Assembly (NCBI RefSeq): GCF_009914755.1
Contig: NC_060933.1
Reading direction: 5' to 3' (one strand)
Source: the human T2T-CHM13v2.0 reference genome, Homo sapiens
Length of the DNA: 64,000 nucleotides
Positions 4,728 to 64,000 of the stretch are shown one piece after another. Each line of letters opens with the position of its first letter. The first letter of the stretch is position 1. Position numbers and translations under genes: made by a program. The notes beneath the pieces were generated by a model. That model saw nothing but the letters and a program-made list of their open reading frames with translations, did no database searches and was not told the DNA's origin.

Positions 4728-4742
4728 ATTCCGGAAGATTCC
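4728..4742. promoter_or_regulatory. Canonical heat-shock element (nTTCnnGAAnnTTCn), first of 10 copies in B domain 1
   Basis: ATTCCGGAAGATTCC. Other copies start at 6481, 7384, 9142, 10350, 13082, 14821, 17274 (ATTCAGGAAGATTCC), 18983 and 19737. The motif match is direct; function is inferred. Confidence 0.6.
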
Positions 4743-7700
4743 ATTCCATTGCATTCCATTGCATTCCATTCCCCTGCACTCGCGTTGATTGCATTCCATT
4801 CCATTCCATTCCATTCCGTTCCGTTCCGTTCCATTCCATTCCATTCCATTCCATTCCATTCCGTTCCGTTCCATTCCATTCCATTCCATTCTATTCGGGT
4901 TAATTCCATTCCATTCCATTCCATTGCAATCGAGTTGATTCCATTCCATTCTATTCCATTCCATTCCATTCCATTCCATTCCTTTCCATTCCATTACGGA
5001 TGATTCCATTCCATTGCATTCCATTCCATTCCATTCCCCTGTACTCGGGTTGATTCCATTCCATTCCATTCCAATCCATGCCATTCCACTCGTGTTGATT
5101 CCATTCTTTCCATTCCATTCAAGTTGAATCCATTCCATTGCATTCCATTCCATTCCATTCCCCTGCATTCGGGTTGATTCCATTCCATTCCATTCCATTC
5201 CATTCCATTCCATTCCGTTCCGTTCCGTTCCATTCCATTCCATTCCATTCTATTCGGGTTACTTCCATTCCATTCCATTCCATTCCATTCCATTCCAATC
5301 GAGTTGATTCCATTCCATTCCATTCCATTCCATTCCACTCCATTCCAGTCCTTTCAATTCCATTCCACTCGGGTTGATTCCAATGTATTCCATTCCATTC
5401 CATTCCATTCCATTGTAATCGAGTTGATTCCATTGCTTTGCATTCCATTCCATTCCATTCCATTCCGGATGATTCCATTCCATTGCATTCCATTCCATTC
5501 CATTCCCCTGCACTCGGGTTGATTCCATTCCATTCCACTCCATTCCGTTCCGTTCCATTCCATTCCATTGTACTCGGGTTAATTCCATTCCATTCCATTC
5601 CATTCCATTCCATTCCATTCCATTACAATCGAGTTGATTCCATTCCATTCCATTCCATTCCAGTCCTTTCCATTCCATTCCACTCGGGTTGATTCCATTC
5701 TATTAGTTTCCATTCCATTCCATTCCCTTCCATTCCACTCTGGTTGATACCATTCCTTTCCATTCCACTCGAATACATTCCCTCCTATTCCACTCGGAAC
5801 GATTCCATTCCATTCCATTCCATTCCATTCCATTCCATTCCATTCCATTCCATTCCATTTCGTTCCATTCCATTCTATTCCGTATCATTCCATTCCATTC
5901 CATTCCATTCCATTCCATTCCATTGTACTCGGGTTGATTCAATTCCATTGCATTCCATTCCATTCCATTCCATTCCATTCCATTCCGTTGCATTCCATTC
6001 CATTACATTCGGATTGATTCTATTCAACTCCCTTACTCTCCATTACATTCCATTCCATTAGGGTTGTTCCATTCCATTCCATTCCATTCCACTCCATTCC
6101 ATTGCACTCGGGTTGATTCCATTCCATTCCATTCCATTCCATTCCATTCCATTCCATTCTATTCCGGATGATTCCATTCCATTGCATTCCGTTCCATTAC
6201 ATTTCCCTGCACTCGCGTTTATTCCATTCCATTCAATTCCATTCCATTCCATTCCATTACATTACAATTCGTTCCATTCCATTCTATTCCGTACCATTCC
6301 ACTCCATTCCATACCATTCCATTCCATTCCATTCCATTCCATTCCATTCCGTTCCATTCCGTTCCATTCCATTCCATTCCATTCTATTCGGATTAATTCC
6401 ATTCCATTCCATTCTATTCCATTCCATTGCAATCGAGTTGATTCCATTCCATTCCATTCCATTCCATTCCATTCCATACCATTCCGGAAGATTCCATTCC
6501 ATTGCATTCCATTCCATTCCATTCCCCTGCACTCGCGTTGATTCCATTCCATTCCATTCTATTCCATTCCATTCCCTTCCTTTCCGTTCCATTCCATTCC
6601 ATTCCATTCCATTTCATTCCATTCCGTTCCGTTCCATTCCATTCCATTCCATTCCATTCCATTCCATTCCGTTCCGTTCCATTCCATTCCATTCCATTCT
6701 ATTCGGGTTAATTCCATTCCATTTCATTCGATTGCAATCGAGTTGATTCCATTCCATTCCATTCCATTCCATTCCATTCCATTCCATTCCATTCCTTTCC
6801 ATTCCATTACGGATGATTCCATTCCATTGCATTCCATTCCATTCCATTCCCCTGTACTCGGGTTGATTCCATTACATTCCATTCCAATCCATGCCATTCC
6901 ACTCGTGTTGATTCCATTCTTTCCATTCCATTCAAGTTGAATCCATTCCATTACATTCCATTCCATTCGATTCCATTCGATTGCACTCGGGTTGATTCCA
7001 TTCCATTGCATTCCATTCCATTCCGTTCCATTCCATTCCATTCCATTCCATTCCGTTCCATTCCATTCCATTACATTCTGATTGATTCTATTCAATTCCC
7101 TTACACTCCATTCCATTCCATTCCATTCGGGTAGTTTCCATTCCATTCCATTCCATTCCTCTCCATTCCATTGAACTCGGGTTGATTCCATTCCATTGCA
7201 TTCCATTCCATTCCATTCAATTCCATTCCGTTCCATTCCATTCCATTACATTCGGATTTATTCTATTCAACTCCCTTACTCTCCATTACATTCCATTCCA
7301 TTCGGGTTGTTCCATTCCATTCCATTCCATTCCACTCCATTCCATTTCACTCGGGTTTATTCCATTCCATTCCATTCCATTCCATTCCGGAAGATTCCAT
7401 TAAATTCCATTCCATTCCATTCCATTCCCCTGCACTCGTGTTGATTCCATTCCATTCCATTCCATTCCATTCCATTCCATTCCATTCCGTTCCGTTCCAT
7501 TCCATTCCATTCCATTCCATTCCAATCCATTCCGTTCCGTTCCGTTCCGTTCCATTCCATTCCATTCCATTCTATTCGGGTTAATTCCATTCCATTCCAT
7601 TCGATTGCAATCGAGTTGATTCCATTCCATTCCATTCCATTCCATTCCATTCCATTCCTTTCCATTCCATTACGGATGATTAAATTCCGTTGCATTCCAT

Positions 7701-10700
7701 TCCATTCCATTCCCCTGTAGTCGGGTTGATTCCATTCCATTCCATTCCAATCCATGCCATTCCACTCGTGTTGATTCCATTCTTTCCATTCCATTCAAGT
7801 TGAATCCATTCCATTGCATTCCATTCCATTCCATTCCCCTGCAGTCGGGTTGTTTCCATTCCATTCCATTCCATTCCATTCCATTCCATTCCATTCCGTT
7901 CCGTTCCATTCCATTCCATTCCATTCTATTCGGATTAATTCCATTCCATTCCATTCCATTCCATTCCATTACATTCCATTCCATTCCAATCGAGTTGATT
8001 CCATTCCATTCCATTCCATTCCATTCCACTCCATTCCAGTCCTTTCCATTCCATTCCACTCGGGTTGATTCCAATGTATTCCTTTCCATTCCATTCCATT
8101 CCATTGCAATCGAGTTGATTCCATTGCTTTGTATTCCATTCCATTCCATTCCATTCCGGATGATTCCATTTCATTGCATTCCATTCCATTCCATTCCCCT
8201 GCACTCGGGTTGATTCCATTCGATTCCACTCCATTCCGTTCCATTCCATTCCATTGCATTGTATTCGGGTTAATTCCATTCCATTCCATTCCATTCCATT
8301 CCATTCCATTCCATTCCATTACAGTCGAGTTGATTCCATTCCATTCCATTCCATTCCAGTCCTTTCCATTTCATTCCTCTCGGGTTGATTCCATTCTATT
8401 AGTTTCCATTCCATTCCATTCCCTTCCATTCCTCTCAGGTTTTTTCCATTCCTTTCCATTCCACTCGAATACATTCCCTCCTATTCCACTCAGAACGATT
8501 CCATTCCATTCCATTCCATTCCATTCCATTTCGTTCCATTCCATTCTATTCCGCATCATTCCATTCCATTCCATTCCATTCCATTCCATTCCATTCCATT
8601 GTACTCGGGTTGATTCAATTCCATTGCACTCCATTCCATTCCATTCCATTCCACTCCGTTGCATTCCATTCCATTACATTCGGATTGATTCTATTCAACT
8701 CCCTTACTCTCCATTCCATTCCATTCCATTCGGGTTGTTCCATTCCATTCCACTCCATTCCATTGCACTCGGGTTGATTCCATTCCATTCCATTATATTC
8801 CATTCCATTCCATTCCATTCCGGATGATTCCATTCCATTGCATTCCGTTCCATTACATTCCCCTGCACTCGCGTTGATTCCATTCCATTCCATTCCATTC
8901 CATTCAACTCCATTCCATTACAATTCGTTCCATTCCATTCTATTCTGTACCATTGCATTCCATTCCATACCATTCCATTGCATTCCATTCCATTCCATTC
9001 CGTTCCATTCCGTTCCATTCCATTCCATTCCATTCTATTCGAATTAATTCCATTCAATTCCATTCCATTCCATTCTATTCCATTCCATTGCAATCGAGTT
9101 GAATCCATTGCATTTCATTCCATTCCAGTCCATTCCATTCCATTCCGGAAGATTCCATTCCATTGCATTCCATTCCATTCCATTCCCCTGCACTCGCGTT
9201 GATTCCATTCCATTCCATTCCATTCCATTCCATTCCGTTCCGTTCCATTCCATTCCATTCCATTCCATTCCGTTCCGTTCCATTCCATTCCATTCCATTC
9301 TATTCGGGTTAATTCCATTCCATTCCATTCCATTCGATTCCATTCCATTGCACTCGGGTTGATTCCATTCCATTCCATTCCATTGCATTCCATTCCATTC
9401 CATTCCGGATGATTCCATTCCATTCCATTCCATTCCATTCCATTCCCCTGCAGTCGGGTTGATTCCATTCCATTCCATTCCATTCCATTCCATTCCGTTC
9501 CATTCCATTCCATTCCATTCTATTTGGGTTAATTCTATTCCATTCCATTCCATTCCATTCCATTCCATTCCAATCGAGTTGATTCCATTCCATTCCTTTC
9601 CATTCCATTCCACTCCATTCCAGTCCTTTCCATTCCATTACACTCGGGTTGATTCCATTCTATTCCTTTCCATTCCATTCCATTCCATTGCAATCGAGTT
9701 GATTCCATTGCTTTGCATTCCATTCCATTCCATTCCATTCCGTATGATTCCATTCCATTGCATTCCATTCCATTCCATTCCCCTGCACTCGGGTTGATTC
9801 CATTCCATTCCACTCCATTCTGTTCCATTCCATTCCGTTCCATTGTATTCGGGTTAATTCCATTCCATTCCATTCCATTCCAATCCATTACTCGAGTTGA
9901 TTCCATTCCATTCCATTCCATTCCATTCCATTCCATTCCAGTCCTTTCCATTCCATTCCACTCGGGTTGATTCCATTCTATTAGTTTCCATTCCATTCCA
10001 TTCCCTTCCATTCCACTCTGGTTGATTCCATTCTTTTCCATTCCACTCGAATACATTCCCTCCTATTCCACTCGGAACGATTCCATTCCATTCCATTCCA
10101 TTCCATTCCATTCGATTCCAGTTCGTTCCATTCCATTCTATTCTGTACCATTCCATTCCATTCCATTCCTTTCCATTCCATTCCTTTCCACTCGTGTTGA
10201 TTCCATTCCTTTCCATTCCATTCGGTTTGAAGGCATTCCATTCCATTCAATTCCACTCCATTCCATTCAATTCCATTCCATTCTATTCCATTCCATTGCA
10301 ATCGAGTTGAATCCATTGCCTTTCATTCCATTCCATTCCATTCCATTCCATTCCGGAAGATTCCATTCCATTACATTCCATTCCATTCCATTCCCCTGCA
10401 CTCGCGTTGATTAAATTCTATTCCATTCCATTCCATTCCGTTCCGTTCAATTCCATTCCATTCCATTCCATTCCGTTCCGTTCCATTCCATTGCATTCCA
10501 TTCTATTCGGGTTAATTCCATTCCATTCCATTCGATTGCCATCGAGTTGATTCCATTCCATTCCATTCCATTCCATTCCATTCCATTCCTTTCCATTCCA
10601 TTACGGATGACTCCATTCCATTGCTTTCCATTCCTTTCCATTCCCCTTTACTCGGGTTGATTCCATTCCATTCCATTCCACTCCATTCGGTTCCGTTGCA

Positions 10701-11849
10701 TTCCATTCTATTGCATTCCATTCTATTCGGGTTAATTCCTTTCCATTTTATTCCATTCCATTCCATTCCATTCCATTGCAATGGAGTTTATTCCATTCCA
10801 TTCCATTCCATTCCGGATGATTCCATTCCATTGCATTCCATTCCATTCCATTCCCCTGCTCTCGTGTTGATTCCATTCCCTTCCATTCCATTCCATTCCG
10901 TTCCATTCCATTCCATTCCATTCTATTCCGGTTAATTCCATTCCATTCCATTCCATTCCATTCCATTCCATTCCATTCCATTCCATTCCATTCCATTCCA
11001 TTGCAATCGAGTTGATTCCATTCCATTCCTTTCCATTCCATTCCATTGCCTTGCATTCCACTCGGGTTGATTCCATTCCCTTCTTTCCACTCCATTACAT
11101 TCCCTTCCATTCCACTCGGAATGATTGATTCCATTCCATTCCATTCCATTCCACTCCATTCCATTGCACTCGGGTTGATTCCATTCCATTCCATTCAATT
11201 CCATTCCATTCCGGATGATTCCATTGCATTGCATTCCGTTCCATTACATTCCCCTGCACTCGGGTTGATACCATTCCATTCCATTCCATTCAATTCCATT
11301 CCATTCGATTCCATTCCGGATGATTCCATTCCATTGCATTCCATTCCATTCCATTCCCCTGCACTCGGGTTGATTACATTCCATTTCCTTCCCTTCCATT
11401 CCTTTCCATTCCATTCCTTTCCATTCTATTCGGGTGAATTCCATTCCATTCCATTCCATTCCATTCCATTCCATTCCATTCTATTCCATTCCATTCCATT
11501 CCATTGCAATCGAGTTGATTCCATTCGATTCCATTCCATTCCGTTCCGGATGATTCCATTCCATTCCATTCCATTCCATTCCATTCCCGTGCAGTCGGGT
11601 TGATTCCATTCCATTCCATTCTATTCCATTCTATTCCATTCCATTCCGTTCCATTCCATTCCATTCCATTCTATTCGGGTTAATTGCATTCCATTCCATT
11701 CCATTCCATTCCATTCCATTCCAATCGAGTTGATTCCATTCCATTCCATTCCATTCCATTCCACTCCATTCCAGTCCTTTCCATTCCATTACACTCTGGT
11801 TGATTCCATTCTATTCCTTTCTATTCCATTCCATTCCATTGCAATCGAG

Positions 11850-14800
11850 TTGATTCCATTGCTTTGCATTCCATTCCATTCCATTCCATTCCGGATGATT
11901 CCATTCCACTGCATTCCATTCCATTCCATTCCCCTGCACTCGGGTTGATTCCATTCCATTCCACTCCATTCCATTCCATTCCATTCCATTCCATTTTATT
12001 CGGGTTAATTCCATTCCATTCCATTCCATTCCATTCCATTCCATTCCATTCCATTACAATCGAGTTGTTTCCATTCCATTCCATTCCATTCCATTCCATT
12101 CCATTCCATTCCATTCCATTGCAATCGAGTTGATTCCATTCCATTTCATTCCATTCCATTCCATTACATTCCATTCCAATCGAGTTGATTCCATTCGATT
12201 TCATTGCATTCCATTCCATTCCATTCCATTCCAGTCCTTTCCATTCCATTCCACTCGGGTTGATTCCATTCTATTAATTTCCATTCCATTCCATTCTCTT
12301 CCATTCCACTCTGGGTGATTCCATTCCTTTCCATTCCACTCGAATACATTCCCTCCTATTCTACTCGGAACGATTCCATTCCATTCCATTCCATTCCATT
12401 CCATTCCATTCCATTCCATTCCATTTCGTTCCATTCCATTCTGTTCCGTATCATTCCATTCCATTCCATTCCATTCCCTTCCATTCCATTCCATTACATT
12501 CCACTCGTGTTGATTCCATTCCTTTCCATTCCATTCGGTTTGAAGGCATTCCATTCCATTCCATTCCATTCGATTCCATTCCATTGTACTCGGGTTGATT
12601 CTATTCCATTGCATTCCATTCCATTCCAATCCGTTGCATTCCATTCCATTACATTCGGATTGATTCTATTCAACTCCCTTACTCTCCATTACATTCCATT
12701 CCATTCGGGTTGTTCCATTCCATTCCATTCCATTCCACTCCATTCCATTGCACTCGGGTTGATTCCATTCCATTCCATTCCATTCCATTCCATTCCGGAT
12801 GATTCCGTTCCATTGCATTCCGTTCCATTACATTCCCCTGCACTCGCGTTGATTCCACTCCATTCCATTCCATTCCATTCCATTCAATTCCATTCCATTA
12901 CAATTCGTTCCATTCCATTCTATTCCGTACCATTCCATTCCATTCCATACCATTCCATTCCATTCCATTCCATTCCATTCCGTTCCGTTCCATTCCGTTC
13001 CATTCCATTCCATTCCATTCCATTCCATTGCAATCGAGTTGAATCCATTGCATTTCATTCCATTCCATTCCATTCCATTCCATTCCGGAAGATTCCATTC
13101 CATTGCATTCCATTCCATTCCATTCCCCTGCACTCGCGTTGATTCCATTCCATTCCATTCCATTCCATTGCATTCCGTTCCGTTCCGTTCCATTTCATTC
13201 CATTCCATTGCATTCCATTCCGTTCCCTTCCATTCCATTCCATTCCATTCTATTCGGGTTAATTCCATTCCATTCCATTCGATTGCAATCGAGTTGATTC
13301 CATTCCATTCCATTCTATTCCGTTCCGGATGATTCCATTCTATTGCATTCCATTCCATTCCATTCCCCTGCAGTCGGGTTGATTCCATTCCATTCCATTC
13401 CATTCCATTCCGTTCCATTCCATTCCATTCCATTCTATTCGTGTTAATTCCATTCCATTCCTTTCCATTGCATTCCATTCCATTCCAATCGAGTTGATTC
13501 CATTCCATTCCATTCCATTCCATTCCACTCCATTCCAGTCCTTTCCATTCCATTACACTCGGGTTGATTCCGTTCTATTCCTTTCCATTCCATTCCATTC
13601 CATTGCAATCGAGTTGATTCCATTGCTTTGCATTCCATTCCATTCCATTCCATTCCGGATGATTCCATTCCATTGCATTCCATTCCATTCCATTCCCCTG
13701 CACTCGGGTTGATTGCATTCCATTCCACTCCATTCCGTTCCATTCTAGTCCATTCCATTGTATTCGGGTTAATTCCATTCCATTCCATTCCATTCCATTC
13801 CCTTACAATGTAGTTGATTCCATTCAATTCCATTCCATTCCATTCCATTCCAGTCCTTTCCATTCCATTCCACTCGTGTTGATTCCATTCTATTAGTTTC
13901 CATTCCATCCCATTCCCTTCCATTCCAATCTGGTTGATTCCATTCCTTTCCATTCCACTCGAATACATTCCCTCCTATTCCACTCAGAACTATTCCATTC
14001 CATTCCATTCCATTCCATTCCATTCCATTCCATTCCAGTTCGTTCCATTCCATTCTATTCCGTACCATTCTATTCCATTCCATTCCTTTCCATTCCATTC
14101 CATTCCACTCGTGGTGATTCCATTCCTTTCCATTCCATTCGGTTTGAAGGCATTCCATTCCATTCAATTCCATTCCATTCCATTCCATTCCATTCCATTC
14201 CATTCCATTCCATTCCATTGTACTCGAGTTGATTCCATTCCATTGCATTCAATTCCATTCCATTCCATTCCATTGTACTCGAGTTGATTCCATTCCATTG
14301 CATTCCATTCCATTCCATTCCATTTCATTCCGTTGCATTCCATTCCTTTACATTCGGATTGATTCTATTCAACTCCCTTACTCTCCATTACATTACATTC
14401 CATTCGGGTTGTTCCATTCCATTCCATTCCATTCCACTCCATTCCATTGCACTCGGGTTGATTCCATTCCATTCCATTCCATTCCATTCCATTGCGGATG
14501 ATTCTATTCCATTGCATTCCGTTCCATTACATTCCCCTGCACTCGCGTTGATTCCATTCCATTGCATTCCATTCCATTCCATTCAATTCCATTCCATTGC
14601 AATTCGTTCCACTGCATTCTATTCCGTACCATTCCATTCCATTCCATACCATTCCATTCCATTCCATTCCATTCCGTTCCGTTCTGTTCCTTTCCATTCC
14701 ATTCCATTCTATTCGGATTAATTCCATTCCATTCCATTCCATTCCATTCTATTCCATTCCATTGCAATCGAGTTGAATCCATTGCATTTCATTCCATTCC

Positions 14801-25872: not shown

Positions 25873-25876
25873 ACGG
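25873..25876. other. Inversion breakpoint (strand-polarity switch) within the satellite
   Basis: Sequence reads ...ATTCCATTGCACACGG/AATGGAATGG... The left motif CATTGCACACGGGTTC (intact at ~1346 and ~23936) is cut after CACACGG and joins directly to GGAATG repeats. No foreign sequence is inserted. Confidence 0.95.
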
Positions 25877-28800: not shown

Positions 28801-28899
28801 CAATGGAATGGAATGGAATGGAATGGAATGGAATGGAATGGAAACAACCCGAATGGAATGGAATGTAATGGAGTGTAAGGAATTGAATACAATCAATCC

Positions 28900-51100: not shown

Positions 51101-54100
51101 AATGGAAACGAATGGAATAGAATCAACTCGATTGCAATGGAATGGAATGGAATGGAATGGAATGGAATGGAGACAACCAGAATGGATTGGAATATAATGG
51201 AGTGTAAGGGAATTGAATAGAATCAGTCTGAATGTAATGAAATGGAATGGAACGGAATGGAATGGAATGTAATGGAATGGAATGGAATGCAATGGAATGG
51301 AATCAACCCGAGTGCAATGGAATGGAATCGAATGGAATGGAATGCAATGGAATGGATTCAACTTGAATGGAATGGAAAGAATGGAATCAACACGAGTGGA
51401 ATGGCATGGATTGGAATGGAATGGAATGGAATCAACCCGAGTATAGGGGAATGGAATGGTATGGAATGCAATGGAGTGGAATCATTCGTAATGGAATGGA
51501 AAGGAATGGAATGGAATGGAATGGAATGGAATGGAATGGAATCAACTCGATTGCAATCGAATGGAATGGAATGGAATTAACCCGAATAGAATGGAATGCA
51601 ATGGAATGGAACGGAACGGAATGGAATGGAATGGGATGGAATGGAATGGAACGGAAAGGAAGGGAATGGAATGGAATAGAATGGAATGGAATGGAATCAA
51701 CGCGAGTGCAGGGGAATGGAATGGAATGGAATGCAATGGAATGGAATCTTCCGGAATGGAATGGAATGGAATGGAATGGAATCAACCCGAGTGCAATGGA
51801 ATGGAGTGGAATGGAATGGAATGGAATGGAATGGAATGGTATGGAATGGAATGATATGGAATAGAATGGAATGGAACGAAATGGAATGGAATGGAATGGA
51901 ATGGAATGGAATGGAATGGAATGGAATCGTTCCGAGTGGAATAGGAGGGAATGTATTTGAGTGGAATGGAAAGGAATGGAATCAACCAGAGTGGAATGGA
52001 AGGGAATGGAATGGAATGGAATGGAATGGAATGGAATGCAATGGAATGGAATCAAACCGAGTGCAATCGAATGGAATCGAATGGAATGGAATGCAATGGA
52101 ATGGATTCAACTTGAATGGAATGGAAAGAATGGAAGCAACACGAGTGGAATGGCATGGATTGGAATGGAATGGAATGGAATCAACCCGAGTACAGGGGAA
52201 TGGAATGGAATGGAATGCAATGGAATGGAATCATGCGTAATGGAATGGAAAGGAATGGAATGGAATGGAATGGAATGGAATGGAATGGAATGGAATGGAA
52301 TCAACTCGATTGCAATCGAATGGAATGGAATGGAATTAACCCGAATAGAATGGAATGGAATGGAATGGAACGGAACGGAACGGAATGGAATGGAATGGAA
52401 TGGAATGGAACGGAACGGAACGGAGTGGAATGGAACGGAATGGAATGGAATGGAATCAACGCGAGTGCAGGGGAATGGAATGGAATGGAATGCAATGGAA
52501 TGGAATCTTCCGGAATGGAATGGAATGGAATGGAATGGAAGGAAATGCAATGGATTCAACTCGATTGCAATGGAATGGAATAGAATGGAATGGAATGGAA
52601 TGGAATGGAATTAATCCGAATAGAATGGAATGGAATGGAATGGAACGGAATGGAACGGAATGGAATGGAATATAATGGAATGGAATGGTATGGAATGGAA
52701 TGGAATGGTACGGAATAGAATGGAATGGAACGAATTGTAATGGAATGGAATTGAATGGAATGGAATGGAATGGAATGGAATCAACGCGAGTGCAGGGGAA
52801 TATAATGGAACGGAATGCAATGTAATGGAATCATCCGGAATGGAATGGAATGGAATGGAATGGAATGGAATGGAATCAACCCGAGTGCAATGGAATGCAG
52901 TAGAATGGAATGGAATGGAATGGAATGGAACAACCCGAATGGAATGGAATGGAATGCAGAGTAAGGGAGTTGAATAGAATCAATCCGAATGTAATGGAAT
53001 GGAATACAACGGAATGGAATGGAATGGATTGGAATGGAATGGAATGGAATGGAATGGAATGGAATGCAATGGAATTGAATCAACCCGAGTACAATGGAAC
53101 GGAATGGAATGGAATGGAATGCAATGGATTGGAATGGAATGATTCGGAAAAGAATGGAATGGAACGAAATGGAATGGAATGGAATGGAATGGAATGGAAT
53201 GGAATGGAATCGTTCCGAGTGGAATAGGAGGGAATGTATTCGAGTGGAATGGAAAGGAATGGTATCAACCAGAGTGGAATGGAAGGGAATGGAATGGAAT
53301 GGAAACTAATAGAATGGAATCAACCCGAGTGGAAGGGAATGGAAAGGACTGGAATGGAATGGAATGGAATGGAATCAACTCGAATGTAATGGAATGGAAT
53401 GGAATGGAATGGAATGGAATTAACCCGAATACAATGGAATGGAATGGAACGGAACGGAATGGAGTGGAATGGAATGGAATCAACCCGAGTGCAGGGGAAT
53501 GGAATGGAATGGAATGCAATGGAATGGAATCATCCGGAATGGAATGGAATGGAATGGAATGCAAAGCAATGGAATCAACTCGATTGCAAAGGAATGGAAT
53601 GGAATGGAAAGGAATACATTGGAATCAACCCGAGTGTAATGGAATGGAAAGGACTGGAATGGAGTGGAATGGAATGGAATGCAATGGAATGGAATGGAAT
53701 CAACTCGATTGAAATGGAATGGAATGGAATGGAATGGAATCAACGCGAGTGCAGGGGAATGGAATGGAATGGAATGCAATGGAATGGAATCTTCCGGAAT
53801 CGAATGGAATGGAATGGAATGGAATGGAATGGAATCAACCCGAGTGCAATGGAATGGAGTGGAATGGAATGGAATGGAATGGAACAACCCGAATGGAATG
53901 GAATGTAATGGAGAGTAAGGGAGTTGAATAGAATCAATCCGAATGTAATGGAATGGAATTTAACGGAATGGAATTGAATGGAATGGATTGGAATGCAATG
54001 GAATGGAATCAACCCGAGTGCAATGGAATGGAGAGGAATGGAATGGAATGCAATGGAAACTACCCGAATGGAATGGAATGTAATGGAGTGTAAGGGAATT

Positions 54101-54680
54101 GAATAGAATCAATCCGAATGTAATGGAATGGAATGGAACGGAATGTAATGGAATGGAATGGAATGGAATGGAATGCAATGGAATGGAATCAACCCGAGTG
54201 CAATCGAATGGAATCGAATGGAATGGAATGCAATGGAATGGATTCAACTTGAATGGAATGGAAAGAATGGAATCAACACGAGTGGAATGGCATGGCTTGG
54301 AATGGAATGGAATGGAATCAACCCGAGTACAGGGGAATGGAATGGAATGGAATGCAATGGAATGGAATCATCCATAATGGAATGGAAAGGAATGGAATGG
54401 AATGGAATGGAATGGAATGGAATGGAATGGAATCAACTCGATTGCAATCGAATGGAATGGAATGGAATTAACCCGAATAGAATGGAATGGAATGGAATGG
54501 AAAGGAACGGAATGGAATGGAATGGAATGGAATGGAATGGAATGGAACGGAACGGAATGGAATGGAATGGAATGGAATGGAATGGAATGGAATCAACGCG
54601 AGTGCAGGGGAATGGAATGGAATGGAATGCAATGAAATGGAATCATCTGGAATGGAATGGAATGGAATTGAATGGAATGG

Positions 54681-55578
54681 AATCAACCCGAGTGCAATGG
54701 AATGGAGTGGAATGGAATGGAATGGAATGGAACAACCCGAATGGAATGGAATGTAATGGAGAGTAAGGGAGTTGAATAGAATCAATCCGAATGTAATGGA
54801 ATGGAATGCAACGGAATGGAATGTAATGGAATGGAATGGAATGCAATGGAATGCAATCAACCCGAGTACAATGGAATGGAATGGAATGGAATGGAATGGA
54901 ACGGAATGGAACCGAATGGAATGGAATGGAATGGAATGGAATGGTATGGAATGGAATGGAATGGTACGGAATAGAATGGAATGGAACGAACTGTAATGGA
55001 ATGGGATTGAATGGAATGGAATGGAATGGAATGGAATCAACGCGAGAGCAGGGGAATGTAATGGAACGGAATGCAATGGAATGGAATCATCCGGAATTGA
55101 ATGGAATGGAATGGAATGGAATGGAATGGAATCAACCCGAGTGCAATGGAATGGAGTGGAATGGAATGGAATGGAATGGAACAACCCGAATGGAATGGAA
55201 TGTAATGGAGAGTAAGGGAGTTGAATAGAATCAATCCGAATGTAATGGAATGGAATGCAACGGAATGGAATGTAATGGAATGGAATGGAATGCAATGGAA
55301 TGCAATCAACCCGAGTACAATGGAATGGAATGGAATGGAATGGAATGGAACGGAATGGAACCGAATGGAATGGAATGGAATGGAATGGAATGGTATGGAA
55401 TGGAATGGAATGGTACGGAATAGAATGGAATGGAACGAACTGTAATGGAATGGGATTGAATGGAATGGAATGGAATGGAATGGAATCAACGCGAGAGCAG
55501 GGGAATGTAATGGAACGGAATGCAATGGAATGGAATCATCCGGAATTGAATGGAATGGAATGGAATGGAATGGAATGG
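54681..55578 (-). repeat. Near-perfect 449-bp tandem duplication
   Basis: ACCGAATGG at 54911/55360 and CGCGAGAGCAGG at 55041/55490. ORFs 54772..54996 and 55221..55445 give identical translations. Confidence 0.92.
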
Positions 55579-58500
55579 AATCAACCGGAGTGAAATGGAA
55601 TGGAATGGAATGGAATGGAATGGAATGGAACAACCCGAATGGAATGGAATGTAATGGAGAGTAAGGGAGTTGAATAGAATGAATCCGAATGTAATGGAAT
55701 GGAATGCAACGGAATGGAATGGAATGGAATGGAATGGAATGCAATGGAATGGAATCAACCCGAGTACAATGGAATGGAATGGAATGGAATGGAATGGAAT
55801 GGAATGGAATGGAATGATACGGAATAGAATGGAATGGAACGAAATGGAATGGAATGGAATGGAATGGATTGGAATGCAATGGAATGGAATCGTTCCGAGT
55901 GGAATAGGAGGGAATGTATTCGAGTGGAATGGAAAGGAATGGAATCAACCAGAGTGGAATGGAAGGGAATGGAATGGAATGGAAACTAATAGAATGGAAT
56001 CAACCCGAGTGGAATGGAATGGAAAGGACTGGAATGGAATGGAATGGAATGGAATCAACTCGATTGTAATGGAATGGAATGGAATGGAATGGAATGGAAT
56101 GAAATTAACCCGAATACAATGGAATGGAATGGAACGGAATGGAGTGGATTGGAATGGAATCAACCCGAGTGCAGGGGATTAGAATGGTATGGAATGCAAC
56201 GGAATGGAATCATCCGGAATGGAATGGAATGCAAAGCAATGGAATCAACTCGATTGCAATGGAATGGAATGGAATGGAAAGGAATACATTGGAATCAACC
56301 CGAGTGGAATGGAATGGAAAGGAGTGGAATGGAGTGGAATGGAATGGAATGGAATGGAATGGAATCAACTCGATTGGAATGGAATAGAATGTAATGGAAT
56401 TGAATGGAATTAACCCGAAGAGAATGGAGTTGAATGGAATGTAACGGAACGGAATGGAATGGAATGGAATGGAATGGAATGGAATGGAATGGAATCAACC
56501 CGACTGCAGGGGAATGGAATGGAATGGAATGCAATGGAATGGATTCAACTTGAATGGAATGGAAAGAATGGAATCAACACGAGTGGAATGGCATGGATTG
56601 GAATGGAATGCAATGGAATCAACCCGAGTACAGGGGAATGGAATGGAATGGAATGCAATGGAATGGAATCATCCGTAATGGAATGGAAAGGAATATAATG
56701 GAATGGAATGGAATGGAATGGAATGGAATCAACTCGATTGCAATCGAATGGAATGGAATGGAATTAAACCGAATAGAATGGAATGGATTGGAATGGAATG
56801 GAACGGAACGGAATGGAATGGAATGGAATGGATTGGAACGGAAAGGAATTGAATGGAATGGAATGGAATGGAATGGAATCAACGCGAGTGCAGGGGAATG
56901 TAATGGAACGGAATGCAAAGGAATTGAATCATCCGGAATGGAATGGAATGGAATGGAATGGAATGGAATGGAATGGAATCAACCCGAGTGCAATGGAATG
57001 GAGTGGAATGGAATGGAATGGAATGGAATGGAATGGAATGGAATGGAATGCAATGGAATGGAATCAACCCGAGTGCAATGGAATGGAATCGAATGGAATG
57101 GAATGCAATGGAATGGATTCAACTTGAATGGAATGGAAAGAATGGAATCAACACGAGTGGAATGGCATGGATTGGAATGGAATGGAATTAACCCGAATAG
57201 AATGGAATGGAATGGAATGGAACGGAATGGAATGGAATGGAATGGAATGGAATGGAATGGAATGGAATCAACCCGACTGCAGGGGAATGGAATGGAATGG
57301 AATGCAATGGAATGGATTCAACTTGAATGGAATGGAAAGAATGGAATCAACACGAGTGGAATGGCATGGATTGGAATGGAATGGAATGGAATCAACCCGA
57401 GTACAGGGGAATGGAATGGAATGGAATGCAATGGAATGGAATCATCCGTAATGGAATGGAAAGGAATGGAATGGAATGGAATGGAATGCAATAGAATGGA
57501 ATGGAATCAACTCGATTGCAATCGAACGGAATGGAATGGAATTAACCCGAATAGAATGGAATGGAATGGAATGGAACGGAAAGCAATGGAATGGAATGGA
57601 ATGGAATGGAATGCAATGGAACGGAACGGAATGGAATGGAATGGAATGGAATGGAACGGAATGGAATCAAAGCGAGTGCAGGGGAATGGAATGGATTGGA
57701 ATGCAATGGAATGGAATCTTCCGGAATGGAATGGAATGGAATGAAATGCAATGGATTCAACTCGATTGCAATGGAATGGAATAGAATGGAATGGAATGGA
57801 ATGGAATGGAATTAATCCGAATAGAATGGAATGGAATGGAATGGAACGGAATGGAACGGAATGGAATGGAATGGAATGGAATGGAATGGTATGGAATGGA
57901 ATGGAATGGTACGGAATAGAATGGAATGGAACGAATTGTAATGGAATGGAATTGAATGGAATGGAATGGAATGGAATGGAATCAACGCGAGTGCAGGGGA
58001 ATGTAATGGAACGGAATGCAATGGAATGCAATCGTCCGGAATGGAATGGAATGGAATGGAATGGAATGGAATGGAATGGAATGGAATGGAATGGAATCAA
58101 CCCGAGTGCAATGGAATGGAGTGGAATGGAATGGAATGGAATGGAGTGGAATGGAATGGAATGGAATGGAACAACCCGAATGGAATGGAATGTAATGGAG
58201 AGTAAGGGAGTTGAATAGAATCAATCCGAATGTAATAGAATGGAATGCAACGGAATGGAATGGAATGGAATGGAATGGAATGGAATGGAATGCAATGGAA
58301 TTGAATCAACCTGAGTACAATGGAATGGAATGCAATGGAATGGAATGGAATGGAATGGAATGGAATGATACGGAATAGAATGGAATGGAACGAAATGGAA
58401 TAGAATGGAATGGAATGGAATGGAATGGAATGGAATGGAATGGAATGGAATCGTTCCGAGTGGAATAGGAGGGAATGTATTCGAGTGGAATGGAAAGGAA

Positions 58501-59059
58501 TGGTATCAACCAGAGTGGAATGGAAGGGAATAGAATGGAATGGAAATTAATAGAATGGAATCAACCCGAGTGGAATGGAATGGAAAGGACTGGAATGGAA
58601 TGGAATGGAATGGAATCAACTCGATTGTAATGGAATGGAATGGAATGGAATGGAATGGAATTAACCCGAATACAATGGAATGGAATGGAATGGAACGGAA
58701 TAGAATGGAATGGAATGGAATCAACCCGAGTGCAGGGGAATGGAATGGAATGGAATGCAATGGAATGGAATCATCCGGAATGGAATGGAATGGAATGGAA
58801 TGCAAAGCAATGGAATCAACTCGATTGCAATGGAATGGAATGGAATGGAAAGGAATACATTGGAATCAACCCGAGTGGAATGGAATGGAAAGGACTGGAA
58901 TGGAGTGGAATGGAATGGAATGGAATGGAATCAACTCGATTGGAATGGAATGGAATGGAATGGAATGGAATTAACCCGAATAGAATGGAATGGAATGGAA
59001 TGGAACGGAACGGAACGGAACGGAATGGAATGGAATGGAATGGAATGGAATGGAATGGA

Positions 59060-62000
59060 ATGGAATCAACCCGACTGCAGGGGAATGGAATGGAATGGAA
59101 TGCAATGGAATGGATTCAACTTGAATGGAATGGAAAGAATGGAATCAACACGAGTGGAATGGCATGGATTGGAATGGAATGGAATGGAATCAACCCGAGT
59201 ACAGGGGAATGGAATGGAATGGAATGCAATGGAATGGAATCATCCGTAATGGAATGGAAAGGAATGGAATGGAATGGAATGGAATGGAATGGAATGGAAT
59301 GGAATCAACTCGATTGCAATCGAATGGAATGGAATGGAATTAACCCGAATAGAATGGAATGGAATGGAATGGAACGGAACGGAACGGAATGGAATGCATT
59401 GGAATGGAATGGAATGGAATGGAACGGAACGGAAAGGAATGGAATGGAATGGAATGGAATGGAATGGAATGGAATGGAATGGAATAAACCCGAGTGCAAT
59501 GGAATGGAGTGGAATGGAATGGAATGGAATGGAACAACCCGAATGGAATGGAATGTAATGGAGAGTAAGGGAGTTGAATAGAATCAATCCGAATGTAATG
59601 GAATGGAATGGAACGGAATGGAATTGAATGGAATGGAATGGAATGCAATGGAATGGAATCAACCCGAGTGCAATGGAATGGAGAGGAATGGAATGGAATG
59701 GAATGGAAACTACCCGAATGGAATGGAATGTAATGGATTGTAAGGGAATTGAATAGAATCAATCCGAATGTAATGGAATGGAATGGAACGGAATGGAATG
59801 GAATGGAATGGAATGGAATGGAATGCAACGGAATGGAATCAACCCGAGTGCAATCGAATGGAATCGAATGGAATGGAATGCAATGGAATGGATTCAACTT
59901 GAATGGAATGGAAAGAATGGAATCAACACGAGTGGAATGGCATGGATTGGAATGGAATGGAATGGAATCAACCCGAGTACAGGGGAATGGAATGGAATGG
60001 AATGCAATGGAATGGAAACATCCGGAAGGGAATGGAAAGGAATGGAATGGAATGGAATGGAATGGAGTCAACTTGATTGCAATCGAATGGAATGGAATGG
60101 AATTAACCCGAATAGAATGGAATGGAATGGAATGGAACGGAACGGAATGGAATGGAATGGAATGGAATGGAATGGAACGGAACGGAACGGAATGGATGGA
60201 ATGGAATGGAATGGAATGGAATGGAATCAACGCGAGTGCAGGGGAATGGAATGGAATGGAATGCAATGGAATGGAATCTTCCGGAATGGAATGGAATGGA
60301 ATGGAATGGAATGAAATGCAATGGATTCAACTCGAATGCAATGGAATGGAACAGAATGGAATGGAATGGAATGGAACAGAATGGAACGGAATGGAACGGA
60401 ATGGAATGGAATGGAATGGTATGGAATGGAATCGAATGGTACGGAATAGAATGGAATGGAACGAATTGTAATGGAATGGAATTGAATGAAATGGAATGGA
60501 ATGGAATGGAATCAACGCGAGTGCAGGGGAATGTAATGGAACGGAATGCAATGGAATGGAATCATCCGGAATGGAATGGAATGGAATGGAATGGAATGGA
60601 ATGGAATGGAATGGAATCAACCCGATGCAATGGAATGGAGAGGAATGGAATGGAATGGAATGGAAACTACCCGGATGGAATGGAATGTAATGGAGAGTAA
60701 GGGAGTTGAAAAGAATCAATCCGAATGTAATGGAATGGAATGGAACGGAATGGAATGGAATGGAATGGAATGGAATGCAATGCAATGGAATGGAATCAAC
60801 CCGAGTACAATGGAATGGAATGGAATGGAATGGAATGGAATGGAATGCAATGGAATGGAATCTTCCGGAATACAATGGAATGGAATGGAATGGAATGGAA
60901 TGGAATGGAATGCAATGGATTCAACTCGATTGCAATGGAATGGAATAGAATGGAATGGAATGGAATGGAATGGAATGGAATTAAACCGAATAGAATGGAG
61001 TGGAATGGAATGGAACGGAACAGAACGGAACGGAACGGAACGGAGTGGAATGGAATGGAATGGAATTGTATGGAATGGAATGGAATGGTACGGAATAGAA
61101 TGGAATGGAAAGAATTGGAATGGAATGGAATCGAATGGAATGGAATGGAATGGAATGGAATCAACCCGAGTGCAGGGGAATGTAATGGAACGGAATGCAA
61201 TGGAATGGAATCATCCGGAATGGAATGGAATGGAATGGAATGGAATGCAATGGAATGGAATCAACCCGAGCGCAATGGAATGGAGTGGAATGGAATGGAA
61301 TGGAATGGAACAACCCGAATGGAATGTAATGTAATGGAGAGTAAGGGAGTTGAATAGAATCAATCCGAATGTAATGGAATGGAACGGAATGGAATGGAAT
61401 GGAATGGAATGGAATGGAATGGAATGGAATGCAATGGAATGGAATCAACCCGAGTACAATGGAACGGAATGGAATGGAATGTAATGGAATGGAATGGAAT
61501 GGAATGGAATGGAATGGAATGGAATGGAATCAACCCGAGTGCAATGGAATGGAGAGGAATGGAATGGAATGGAAAGGAAACTACCCGAATGGAATGGAAT
61601 GTAATGGAGTGTAAGGGAATTGAATAGAATCAATCCGAATGGAATGGAATAGAATGGAAGGGAATGTAATGGAATGGAATGGAATGGAATCAACCCGAGT
61701 GCAGGGGAATGGAATGGAATGGAATGCAATGGAATGGAATCATCCGGAATGGAACGGAATGGAATGTAATGGAATGGAATGGAATCAACCCGAGTGCAAT
61801 GGAATGGAGTGAAATGGAATGGAATGGAGACAACCAGAATGGATTGGAATATAATGGAGTGTAAGGGAATTGAATAGAATCAATCTGAATGTAATGAAAT
61901 GGAATGGAACAGAATGGAATGGAATGGAACGGAATGGAATGGAATGCAATGGAATGGAATCAACCCGAGTGCAATCGAATGGAATCGAATGGAATGGAAT

Positions 62001-64000
62001 GCAATGGAATGGATTCAACTTGAATGGAATGGAAAGAATGGAATCAACACGAGTGGAATGGCATGGATTGGAATTGAATGGAATGGAATCAACCCGAGTA
62101 TAGGGGAATGGAATGGAATGGAATGCAATGGAATGGAATCATCCGTAATGGAATGGAAAGGAATGGAATGGAATGGAATGGAATGGAATCAACTCGATTG
62201 CTATCGAATGGAATGGAATGGAATTAACCTGAAAAGAATGGAATGGAATGGAATGGAACGGAACGGAATGGAATGGAATGGAATGGAATGGAATGGAATG
62301 GAAAGGAAAGGAATGGAATGGAATGGAATAGAATGGAATGGAATGGAATCAACGCGAGTGGAGGGGATTGGAATGGAATGGAATGCAATGGAATGGAATC
62401 TTCCGGAATGGAATGGAATGGAATGGAATGGAATGGAATGGAATGGAATCAACCCGAGTGCAATGGAATGGAGTGGAATGGAATGGAATGGAATGGAACA
62501 ACCCGAATGGAATGGAATGTAATGGAGAGTAAGGGAGTTGAATAGAATCAATCTGAATGTAATGGAATGGAATGGAACGGAATGGAATTGAATGGAATGG
62601 AATGGAATGCAATGGAATGGAATCAACCCGAGTGCAATGGAATGGAGAGGAATGGAATGGAATGGAATGGAAACTACCCGAATGGAATGGAATGTAATGG
62701 AGTGTAAGGGAATTGAATAGAATCAATCCGAATGTAATGGAATGGAATGGAACGGAATGTAATGGAATGGAATGGAATGGAATGGAATGCAATGGAATGG
62801 AATCATCCATAATGGAATGGAAAGGAATGGAATGGAATGGAATGGAATGGAATGGAATGGAATGGAATGGAATCAACTCGATTGCAATCGAATGGAATGG
62901 AATGGAATTAACCCGAATAGAATGGAATGGAATGGAATGGAAAGGAACGGAATGGAATGGAATGGAATGGAATGGAATGGAATGGAATGGAATGGAACGG
63001 AACGGAATGGAATGGAATGGAATGGAATGGAATCAACGCGAGTGCAGGGGAATGGAATGGAATGGAATGCAATGAAATGGAATCATCCGGAATGGAATGG
63101 AATGGAATGGAATGGAATGGAATGGAATGGAATCAACCCGAGTGCAATGGAATGGAGTGGAATGGAATGGAATGGAATGGAACAACCCGAATGGAATGGA
63201 ATGTAATGGAGAGTAAGGGAGTTGAATAGAATCAATACGAATGTAATGGAATAGAATGCAACGGAATGGAATGTAATGGAATGGAATGGAATGCAATGGA
63301 ATGGAATCAACCCGAGTACAATGGAATGGAATGGAATGGAATGGAATGGAATGGAATCATCCGGAATGGAATGGAATGGAATGGAATGGAATGGAATGGA
63401 ATGGAATCAAATCGATTTCAATGGAATGGAATGGAATAGAATGGAATGGAATAAACACGAAAGAATGGAATGGAATGGAATGGAATGGAAAAGAAAGGAA
63501 TGGAATGCAATGGAATGGAATCAACTCAAGTGCAGGGGAATGGAATGCAATGGAATTCAATGGAATGGAATCATCCGGAATGGAATGGAATGGAATGGAA
63601 TGGAATGGAATGGAATGGAATCAACCCGAGTGCAATGGAATGGAGAGGAATGGAATGGAATGGAATGGAAACTACGCGAATGGAATGGAATGTAATGGAG
63701 TGTAAGGGAATTGAATAGAATGAATCCGAATGGAATGGAATGGAATGGAATGGAAAGGAATGGAATGGAATGGAATGGAATGCAATGCCATGGAATCAAC
63801 CCGAGTGCAATCGAATGGAATCGAATCGAATGGAATGCAATGTAATGGATTCAACTTGAATGGAATGGAAAGAATGGAATCAACACTAGTGCAATGGCAT
63901 GGATTGGAATGGAATGGAATGGAATCAACTCGATTGCAATCGAATGGAATGGAATGGAATTAACGCGAATAGAATGGAATGGAATGGAATGGAATGGAAC
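59060..64000 (-). repeat. Copy 2 of the ~15.85 kb-offset duplication (runs close to the window end)
   Basis: Carries the same ordered markers as 43140-48100, at offsets of 15,826-15,926 bp. Confidence 0.88.

What the first reader, a model, noticed from the sequence alone, without database searches (positions are those of the whole stretch)
4728..62409. About 23 perfect heat-shock elements confined to the dialect-B domains
Seen: GGAATCTTCCGGAAT is an exact three-pentamer inverted nGAAn array. I count 10 copies in 2341-19850 and 13 in 43131-64000, about one per 1.6-1.7 kb, usually just after CAACGCGAGTGCAGGGG. I found none in the ~23 kb central A domain, where the homologous position reads GGAATCATCCGG or GGAATCATACGG. 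Plain (GGAAT)n has only direct nGAAn repeats, so one A>T change creates the HSE. Established: HSF1 trimers bind inverted nGAAn repeats, bind Satellite III and drive SatIII lncRNA and nuclear stress bodies. Inference: this variant could determine which sub-arrays are stress-inducible, producing two HSF1 platforms either side of an HSE-free core.
Basis: partly seen in the sequence, partly recalled or inferred. Interest (0 to 1): 0.8.

Follow-up and report, generated by a model that had tools for sequence, protein, structure and literature searches.

The report
Heat-shock elements in chromosome 9 satellite
One repeat module of the chromosome 9 Satellite III array carries a perfect heat-shock factor binding site made by a single base change, and its patchy distribution is real but has already been reported in outline.

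Summary
GAAnnTTCnnGAA occurs 23 times in the window: 10 at 4729-19750 and 13 at 44383-62408. None lies in the 24.6 kb between them. All 23 sit at one position of one repeat module. Paralogous modules read TCATCC there, so a single A>T change was made once and then amplified. The framing needs correcting. The left arm is minus-oriented, with a strand switch at 25861-25881. In 264 kb of contiguous chr9 sequence, HSE-bearing sequence is the default. HSE-free 'A' sequence forms about 22-kb islands around copies of that same junction. The junction has 80 copies, all on chr9. TCATCC is commoner inside the B domains (37 of 42) than in A. The genome holds 12,700 exact copies of the 15-mer, none on chr1-8. 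The functional reading is plausible but I could not test it here. It is largely anticipated: Franklin et al. (bioRxiv 2024.10.22.616524) report HSF1 motifs confined to sub-regions of HSat3 arrays, with HSF1 ChIP-seq enriched there. The nucleotide-level account was not found in print. Verdict: real, already known in kind, moderate interest.

The parts
1..2340 (-). A-type HSat3 with no HSE. It duplicates the sequence at about 22-24 kb.
   Evidence: 32-mer sharing with bin 22-24 kb is 67%. No inverted dyads.
2341..19850 (-). B-type HSat3 domain, (ATTCC)n on the + strand. It holds 10 HSEs and 30 anchored modules (1.71 per kb).
4729..4741 (-). HSE core GAATCTTCCGGAA
6482..6494 (-). HSE core GAATCTTCCGGAA
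7385..7397 (-). HSE core GAATCTTCCGGAA (anchor variant CAACACG)
9143..9155 (-). HSE core GAATCTTCCGGAA
10351..10363 (-). HSE core GAATCTTCCGGAA
13083..13095 (-). HSE core GAATCTTCCGGAA
14822..14834 (-). HSE core GAATCTTCCGGAA. The 5' flank is T, so it does not match the exact 15-mer.
17275..17287 (-). HSE core variant GAATCTTCCTGAA. The spacer CpG is lost and the core is intact.
18984..18996 (-). HSE core GAATCTTCCGGAA, with no CAGGGG anchor upstream
19738..19750 (-). HSE core GAATCTTCCGGAA, the last one before the A island
19851..43130 (.). A-type island with no HSE and no inverted nGAAn dyad. It holds 8 anchored modules (0.34 per kb) and spans the strand switch.
25861..25881 (+). Inversion junction ATTCCATTGCACACGGAATGG, where (ATTCC)n changes to (GGAAT)n. 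It is one of 80 identical copies, all on chr9.
43131..64000 (+). B-type HSat3 domain, (GGAAT)n on the + strand. It holds 13 HSEs and 36 anchored modules (1.72 per kb). The stretch at about 44-48 kb is duplicated at about 60-64 kb, with an offset of about 15.85-15.89 kb.
44383..44395 (+). HSE core GAATCTTCCGGAA
45012..45024 (+). HSE core GAATCTTCCGGAA, no anchor
46540..46552 (+). HSE core GAATCTTCCGGAA
48421..48433 (+). HSE core GAATCTTCCGGAA; the anchor lies 20 nt further upstream than usual
49789..49801 (+). HSE core GAATCTTCCGGAA, no anchor
50318..50330 (+). HSE core GAATCTTCCGGAA
51744..51756 (+). HSE core GAATCTTCCGGAA
52503..52515 (+). HSE core GAATCTTCCGGAA
53787..53799 (+). HSE core GAATCTTCCGGAA
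57714..57726 (+). HSE core GAATCTTCCGGAA
60274..60286 (+). HSE core GAATCTTCCGGAA (paralogue of 44383)
60858..60870 (+). HSE core GAATCTTCCGGAA (paralogue of 45012)
62396..62408 (+). HSE core GAATCTTCCGGAA (paralogue of 46540)

Best explanation
The 23 sites are copies by descent of one module of the nested repeat of the chromosome 9 HSat3 (subfamily B5) array. The module reads CAACGCGAGTGCAGGGG, then about 29 nt, then GGAATCTTCCGGAAT. One A>T substitution (TCATCC to TCTTCC) turned a GGAAT-derived pentamer into nTTCn. That created a minimal perfect heat-shock element (nGAAn-nTTCn-nGAAn) inside otherwise purely direct nGAAn repeats. The module was then amplified with the array to about 12,700 exact copies.

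HSE-bearing 'B' sequence is therefore the default state of the array around this window. The HSE-free 'A' stretch is a different HSat3 flavour. At least one of its marker 21-mers is shared with HSat arrays on other chromosomes. It forms islands of a few kb to about 23 kb around one inversion junction, and that junction has itself been copied 80 times across the array.

Inferred, not shown here: on heat shock, HSF1 trimers bind these canonical sites, spaced about 0.5-4 kb apart. The sites supply the high local density of binding sites that makes 9q12 the main seed of nuclear stress bodies and SatIII transcription. On this reading the A islands are small holes in a continuous platform. They do not divide it into two platforms.
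For: Shown here.
- All 23 sites share the same flanks and the same offset from the anchor.
- Of 76 anchored modules in the window, 18 read TCTTCC at the scanned offset and all 18 are in B. 46 read TCATCC: 40 in B, 5 in the central A domain, 1 in 1-2340.
- The genome holds 6460 + 6240 = 12,700 exact 15-mers, against 0 and 3 for the reversed control. The first listed copy is C9:49,755,937 in a listing sorted by contig and position, so none lies on C1-C8.
- This variant makes up 12,700 of the 14,004 GGAATNTTCNGGAAT sites in the genome.
- In 264 kb of contiguous sequence there are 127 regex HSEs and 116 exact 15-mers (0.44 per kb). HSE-free A-type sequence occurs only at C9:53,944-53,966 kb and 54,084-54,107 kb, both at the same minus-to-plus junction.
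- The junction 21-mer has 80 copies, all on C9 between 52.34 and 76.36 Mb.
- All 4 further junction copies sampled have A-type sequence on both sides.
- An A-marker 21-mer also occurs on chr1, 2, 4, 5 and 7 and on chr9 at 48.5-49.3 Mb.

From papers (passages read).
- Franklin et al., bioRxiv 10.1101/2024.10.22.616524: HSF1 motifs lie in sub-regions of HSat3 arrays, and HSF1 ChIP-seq from heat-shocked MCF7 cells is enriched where motif density is high.
- PMC4552642: HSF1 prefers canonical HSEs over discontinuous ones.
- PMC11622622: heat-shock transcripts map across the chr9 hSat3_9_3(B5) array.
Against: - No binding or transcription data could be examined here, so HSF1 occupancy of this exact 15-mer is inferred.
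- Franklin's Figure 2b and supplementary data were not visible to me. I cannot say that their motif hits are these sites, or that their sub-regions are on chr9.
- The site has only three pentamers, and the flanking pentamers are in the wrong orientation for a second trimer.
- The two spacer bases between TTC and GAA are a CpG in heterochromatin, and I do not know what its methylation does to binding.
- Jolly et al. 2002 (PMC2173303) obtained HSF1 binding in vitro to the 158-bp pHuR98 clone. They described its NGAAN units as not organised like a canonical HSE, so non-canonical binding exists.
- Whether copies lie on C10-C24 was not resolved. There is only a density argument (0.44 per kb times about 26.6 Mb gives about 11,700, against 12,700) and one HSE-free 10-kb chr15 sample.
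- The 0.44 per kb density comes from one contiguous region.
Confidence: 0.7

Rival explanations
1. The B-A-B layout is a functional unit: two discrete HSF1 platforms are separated by an HSE-free core that sets which sub-arrays are inducible.
For: Within the 64-kb window the layout looks like this. The core contains a strand switch from which G-rich transcription would run outward on both sides.
Against: - In 264 kb the B state is continuous background and A forms islands.
- The island lengths on either side of the junction vary between copies: 6.1 and 18.5 kb here, about 18 and 4-6 kb at the copy 127 kb away, and down to 1.6-3.6 kb on one side in other copies.
- A second junction type, at C9:53,989,931, lies in B sequence with HSEs nearby.
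- The pattern is what duplication of an inversion cassette would produce, so no function is needed to explain it.
Confidence: 0.08
2. HSF1 is recruited to 9q12 by the bulk satellite, either through direct 'step-type' nGAAn repeats or through unusual DNA structure. On this view the perfect HSE is a neutral passenger variant of one module.
For: - Step-type GAA(7)GAA(7)GAA is everywhere, at about 66 per kb, about 100 times denser than the perfect HSE.
- Jolly et al. 2002 saw HSF1 shift pHuR98, which they describe as lacking canonical HSE organisation, and they suggested secondary structure.
- Heat-shock transcripts are reported across the entire chr9 array.
Against: - Step-type density is the same in A and B (65.8 against 65.6-66.9 per kb) and presumably in other HSat3 arrays, so it cannot explain sub-regional ChIP enrichment or the preference for chr9.
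- Step-type HSEs give low activation, and HSF1 prefers canonical HSEs (PMC4552642).
- pHuR98 needed more HSF1 than the consensus HSE did (>12.5 ng against >3 ng).
Confidence: 0.15
3. The sites are perfect on paper but unused in vivo, because CpG methylation in the spacer or heterochromatin packing blocks them. HSF1 foci would then depend on other features.
For: The two spacer bases are a CpG. The array is constitutive heterochromatin (general knowledge; stated in passages).
Against: The CpG lies at 'n' positions, not in the GAA/TTC cores, and copies that have lost it still fit the consensus. HSF1 ChIP-seq enrichment tracks motif-dense regions. Jolly 2002 reports that granule reconstitution on chromosomes needs no stress-induced chromosomal modification.
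Confidence: 0.05

Closest known systems
HSF1 motif-dense sub-regions of HSat3 arrays (Franklin et al., bioRxiv 10.1101/2024.10.22.616524; passages read, figures and supplements not seen)
   Same: Same satellite family and same assembly (T2T-CHM13v2.0). Same claim that HSF1 motifs are confined to sub-regions while other motifs are uniform. ChIP-seq support from heat-shocked MCF7 cells.
   Different: The passages I read give no site sequence, no module or single-base origin, no copy number and no link to inversion junctions. I also could not tell the scale of their sub-regions or which chromosomes they lie on.
Perfect HSEs in chromosome Y SATIII (DYZ1), Chromosoma 2021, PMC7889540 (passages read)
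   Same: Canonical HSEs interspersed in a GGAAT-derived satellite, about one per kb (4 in 3564 bp), tied to HSF1 binding and nuclear stress bodies.
   Different: Different chromosome and repeat unit. The Y site sequences were not compared here, because my one chrY sample was not HSat3.
Putative HSEs in 9q12 SATIII, noted as 'our unpublished observation' in the review PMC9032817 (passages read)
   Same: Same locus and same idea.
   Different: The review gives no sequence, count or distribution, and states that the number of sites is unknown.
Canonical promoter HSE (for example HSP70 proximal HSE; nGAAnnTTCnnGAAn)
   Same: All nine core bases of a three-unit inverted array match.
   Different: It has three units only and is embedded in thousands of direct nGAAn repeats. 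It is repeated about every 1.5 kb and does not sit at a defined promoter. No transcription start site is known.
HSat3B5 inversion breakpoints (Altemose et al., bioRxiv 10.1101/2021.07.12.452052; passages read)
   Same: The strand switch at 25861-25881 is one of the 'over 200 inversion breakpoints' reported for the chr9 HSat3B5 array.
   Different: Here 80 breakpoints share one junction 21-mer and 28 share another. The first type carries HSE-free flanks. I did not see this in the passages read.

Membership tests
Canonical (perfect, 3-unit) heat-shock element | Three contiguous nGAAn pentamers in alternating orientation | tested here: met
   23 of 23 sites match GAAnnTTCnnGAA; 21 are the exact 15-mer.
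Canonical (perfect, 3-unit) heat-shock element | Bound by HSF1 trimers in vitro or in vivo | not testable with these tools
   Only indirect evidence: ChIP-seq enrichment at motif-dense HSat3 sub-regions in Franklin et al..
Canonical (perfect, 3-unit) heat-shock element | Confers heat-inducible transcription on adjacent DNA | not testable with these tools
   Heat-shock transcripts are reported across the chr9 B5 array at Mb scale. Nothing is available at site scale.
HSat3 subfamily B5 (chr9 array) | GGAAT/ATTCC pentamer-derived satellite | tested here: met
   TRF finds period 5 across 2-25868 (ATTCC) and 25875-63999 (GGAAT). Exact pentamers make up about 56-59% of bases.
HSat3 subfamily B5 (chr9 array) | Location in the annotated chr9 B5 array | tested here: met
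   The window is C9:54,064,001-54,128,000. The figure legend of PMC11622622 places hSat3_9_3(B5) at chr9:52,732,572-72,971,764.
HSat3 subfamily B5 (chr9 array) | Subfamily-diagnostic k-mers of Altemose et al. 2014 | not tested
   The k-mer set was not available. It is unknown whether A-type islands would be classed as B5.
Nuclear stress body seeding locus (9q12) | HSF1 foci and SatIII lncRNA arise from this DNA on heat shock | not testable with these tools
   Established for 9q12 as a whole (Jolly 2002), not for this window.
Gap-type or step-type discontinuous HSE | nTTCnnGAAn(5 bp)nGAAn, or three direct units 5 bp apart | tested here: met
   The gap-type pattern is present at all 23 sites and nowhere else. 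The step-type pattern is at about 66 per kb in A and B alike. Definitions are from PMC4552642.

The most novel reading that the evidence does not exclude
A single A>T substitution in one module of the chr9 HSat3 nested repeat, amplified to about 12,700 copies and essentially private to chr9, is what makes 9q12 the primary HSF1 target and seed of nuclear stress bodies. Other large HSat3 arrays, such as chr15, would lack it. The 80 HSE-free junction cassettes would then be built-in negative controls, and copy-number variation of this module among people would set individual stress-body capacity.
Probability: 0.35. Interest if true: 0.6.

Novelty: already known. Interest (0 to 1): 0.35.

Why it matters
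Why HSF1 gathers on 9q12 has been open since 2002. At that time the cloned chr9 repeat seemed to lack canonical HSE organisation. A 2022 review still called the number of sites unknown. The complete assembly shows an abundant, perfect site that is largely or wholly on chr9. Its paralogue differs by one base, and HSE-free islands lie inside the same array. Existing HSF1 ChIP-seq data can therefore be re-read at k-mer level to separate canonical-site binding from bulk-satellite binding. The general point, that HSF1 motifs mark sub-regions which bind HSF1, is already in a preprint. What this adds is resolution and a clean test, not a new phenomenon.

Tried and rejected
- Inverted duplication. I tested whether the window is a palindrome centred on the strand switch. 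Shared 60-mers between the reverse-complemented left arm and the right arm fall on many diagonals, and the HSE-free spans are asymmetric (6.1 against 18.5 kb), so I rejected this.
I replaced it with 80-mer diagonals.
- TRF at high score reports only the 5-bp period. It found no regular higher-order period up to its 500-bp limit. HSE spacing is irregular.
- I tried to define the HSE-bearing module subtype by its upstream prefix alone, so as to compare core and spacer decay. With up to 2 substitutions the prefix also captured paralogous modules (356 hits). No selection test was possible and I dropped it.
As a result the array-wide HSE density and the tally per chromosome beyond C9 remain estimates.
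- The one chrY sample (C24:40.0 Mb) was not HSat3.
- The Science version of Altemose et al. was not held under the id I tried, so I read the preprint instead.
- A literal search for the site sequence (four 12-13-mers, both strands) found 8 papers, none of them a satellite paper. I opened only one, where the match lay inside a Cas12a coding sequence. Figures are not held and bioRxiv supplements are closed, so a printed logo or table could have been missed.
Full report
**1. The observation**

The window is T2T-CHM13 chr9:54,064,001-54,128,000, which is C9 of the held genome.

- The exact 15-mer GGAATCTTCCGGAAT occurs 21 times. Eight are on the minus strand between 4728 and 19751, and 13 are on the plus strand between 44382 and 62409.
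The two extra sites are 14822 and 17275.
- Dinucleotide-preserving shuffles give 3.05 +/- 1.62.
- No site lies between 19751 and 44382. Neither 19851-43130 nor 1-2340 holds a single inverted dyad, GAAnnTTC or TTCnnGAA. So there are no imperfect two-unit HSEs there either.
- Mean spacing is 1668 bp on the left and 1501 bp on the right, with a range of 529-3927 bp.

**2. What the sites are**

Aligned by eye in GGAAT orientation, all 23 share the same flanks. By my count from that table, 14 have the exact 17-mer CAACGCGAGTGCAGGGG upstream and 19 have it with at most one mismatch. Most are followed by GAAATGCAATGGATTCAACTCGATTGC.

Listing every CAAnnCGAGTnCAGGGG anchor gives 76 modules in the window.

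| Domain | Modules | Per kb |
|---|---|---|
| B left | 30 | 1.71 |
| B right | 36 | 1.72 |
| Central A | 8 | 0.34 |
| 1-2340 | 2 | 0.85 |

At a fixed offset after the anchor, the modules read as follows.
- TCTTCC in 18 modules, all in B.
- TCATCC in 46 modules: 40 in B, 5 in the central A domain, 1 in 1-2340.
- Rare one-off variants in the rest (TCCTCC, TCGTCC, TCATAC and others).

The HSE state is linked to one subtype: anchor CAACGCG followed by AATGGAATGGAATGGAATGC. Sister subtypes carry TCATCC. These are CAACGCG with AATGTAATGGAACGG, CAACCCG...GCAAAGC, and CAACCCGAGTACAGGGG...CCGTAATGG.

It was one historical change in one module type, later amplified. It was not 23 separate events.

The TCATCC 15-mer is not the A-domain counterpart. 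Of its 42 copies, 37 lie in the B domains.

**3. Architecture**

The window changes strand at 25866-25875. (ATTCC)n lies to the left and (GGAAT)n to the right. The left HSEs are therefore on the minus strand.

A 32-mer sharing matrix confirms two sequence flavours.
- B covers about 2-20 kb and about 42-64 kb.
- A covers 0-2 kb and 20-42 kb.
- 1-2 kb duplicates 22-24 kb (67% sharing).
- 44-48 kb duplicates 60-64 kb (79% and 63% sharing), with HSEs offset by about 15.85-15.89 kb.

The structure is not a palindrome. The HSE-free span is 6.1 kb to the left of the junction and 18.5 kb to the right.

**4. Wider context**

I read the 200 kb to the left of the window. Over the resulting 264 kb, HSEs occur in nearly every 4-kb bin: 127 regex sites and 116 exact 15-mers, or 0.44 per kb.

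HSE-free A-type sequence appears at only two places, C9:53,944-53,966 kb and the window's own 54,084-54,107 kb. Both surround a minus-to-plus strand switch. The two junction sequences are nearly identical over at least 300 bp.

The junction 21-mer has 80 exact copies in the genome, 47 forward and 33 reverse. All are on chr9 between 52.34 and 76.36 Mb.

Four further copies, at 57.1, 66.5, 72.4 and 76.0 Mb, all have A-type sequence on both sides. At these four the nearest HSE lies beyond 5 kb, at +1.83 kb, at +1.56 kb and at -3.6 kb respectively.

A plus-to-minus switch at C9:53,989,931 lies in B sequence with HSEs close by. It belongs to a second junction family of 28 copies, all on chr9.

So B is the background. 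A is a cassette that travels with one amplified inversion junction. 'Two platforms around a core' is what one such cassette looks like in a 64-kb frame.

**5. Genome-wide**

- The HSE 15-mer has 12,700 exact copies (6460 + 6240), against 0 and 3 for the reversed control.
- The listings are sorted by contig and position, and the first copy listed is C9:49,755,937. So chr1-8 and proximal chr9 have none.
- The TCATCC 15-mer has 20,563 copies.
- Of 14,004 GGAATNTTCNGGAAT sites, 12,700 are this one variant. The first 100 listed, which cover C1-C7, are all other variants at scattered positions.
- The local density of 0.44 per kb, taken over the roughly 26.6 Mb from 49.76 to 76.4 Mb, predicts about 11,700 copies. 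That is close to the genome total. Most copies are probably on chr9, but this was not shown directly.
- One 10-kb HSat3 sample from chr15 (10.0 Mb) has no HSE and no inverted dyad. The chrY sample was not HSat3.
- An A-marker 21-mer has 1,131 copies. It also occurs on chr1, 2, 4, 5 and 7, and on chr9 at 48.5-49.3 Mb, proximal to the first HSE. This hints that A is an older, shared flavour and B a chr9-specific derivative. It rests on one k-mer.

**6. Mechanism**

The site fits the canonical three-unit HSE in all nine core bases. Its neighbours on both sides are direct GGAAT units, so a second trimer would find a poor site. The two spacer bases between TTC and GAA are a CpG. Copies that have lost the CpG still fit the consensus.

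Plain (GGAAT)n is formally an endless step-type HSE. The density of that pattern is the same in A and B, at 65.6-66.9 per kb. PMC4552642 (passages) gives the gap-type and step-type definitions. It reports low activation from step-type sites and a preference of HSF1 for canonical sites.

So A and B differ only in canonical and gap-type sites. This makes the A cassettes natural negative controls for separating canonical-site recruitment of HSF1 from bulk-satellite recruitment. That HSF1 binds these sites in vivo is inference.

**7. What is in print**

- Jolly et al. 2002 (PMC2173303; passages) showed HSF1 binding to 9q12 and to the pHuR98 clone. They noted that its NGAAN units are not organised like a canonical HSE.
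- The review PMC9032817 (passages) mentions putative HSEs in 9q12 SATIII as an unpublished observation. It states that the number of sites is unknown.
- PMC7889540 (passages) found four perfect HSEs in the 3564-bp chrY unit.
- Altemose et al. (preprint; passages) report over 200 inversion breakpoints in the chr9 HSat3B5 array.
- PMC11622622 (passages) places hSat3_9_3(B5) at chr9:52.73-72.97 Mb and reports heat-shock transcripts across the array.
- Franklin et al. (bioRxiv 10.1101/2024.10.22.616524; passages) state that HSF1 motifs are enriched in sub-regions of HSat3 arrays, unlike TEAD motifs. They also state that HSF1 ChIP-seq from heat-shocked MCF7 cells is enriched where motif density is high.

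I could not see their figure or supplements.

A literal search for the site sequence found no satellite paper. Searches for HSat3 + HSF1, for satellite III + HSF1 + HSE + 9q12, and for HSF1 + CHM13 listed nothing with a nucleotide-level account, judged from listings and the passages I read.

**8. Verdict**

The single-base origin is supported. The 'two platforms and a core' architecture is a local view of a recurrent junction cassette. The functional idea is plausible and consistent with published data, but it was not tested here and is already known in outline.

What remains apparently undescribed in the library I searched:
- the site's sequence and module,
- its copy number,
- its absence from chr1-8,
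- the HSE-free junction cassettes.

Together these give a direct k-mer test on existing data.

Noticed in passing
window 25861-25881 and 79 other places on C9:52.34-76.36 Mb: One inversion junction (ATTCCATTGCACACGGAATGG) is present in 80 exact copies, 47 forward and 33 reverse, all on chr9. A large share of the array's reported 'over 200 inversion breakpoints' may therefore descend from a few events copied by large duplications.
   Followed up: partly
C9:52.3-60.7 Mb versus 61.0-71.3 Mb (positions listed): The order, strand and spacing of junction copies repeat at an offset of about 8.7-10.6 Mb. For example, 52,915,254(-)/52,954,494(+)/52,975,693(+) match 61,655,031(-)/61,694,271(+)/61,715,460(+). 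This points to a multi-megabase duplication inside the array. The window's own paralogue should lie near C9:62.83-62.89 Mb.
   Followed up: no
L021, C9:53,989,931 (74 kb left of the window): A second junction type, plus-to-minus, lies in B-type sequence with HSEs nearby. It has 28 exact copies, all on chr9.
   Followed up: partly
window 44-48 kb and 60-64 kb: A direct duplication of at least 4 kb with an offset of about 15.85-15.89 kb carries three HSEs in the same order.
   Followed up: partly
window 1-2000 and 22000-24000: A-type sequence at the left edge of the window shares 67% of its 32-mers with 22-24 kb. A second A fragment therefore lies beyond the left B domain.
   Followed up: no
window A island; C1:127.5-128.7 Mb, C7:58.39-58.96 Mb, C9:48.5-49.3 Mb: An A-enriched 21-mer (GGAATGGAAGGCAATGGAATG) has 1,131 copies and is shared with HSat arrays on other chromosomes and with proximal chr9. 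The HSE 15-mer is absent from chr1-8.
   Followed up: partly
C9:54,044,001-54,064,000 (L027-L028, just left of the window): About 20 kb has intermediate k-mer sharing with both A and B (0.22-0.28 and 0.13-0.23). HSEs are present in 4 of its 5 bins. It may be a third flavour or a mosaic.
   Followed up: no
window 3178, 47208, 54594, 63034: Four modules have the HSE-type anchor and prefix but lack the HSE (TCCTCC, TCATCC, TCATCT, TCATCC). Three of them share a GCAATGAAATGG signature. They could be the pre-mutation state or revertants.
   Followed up: no
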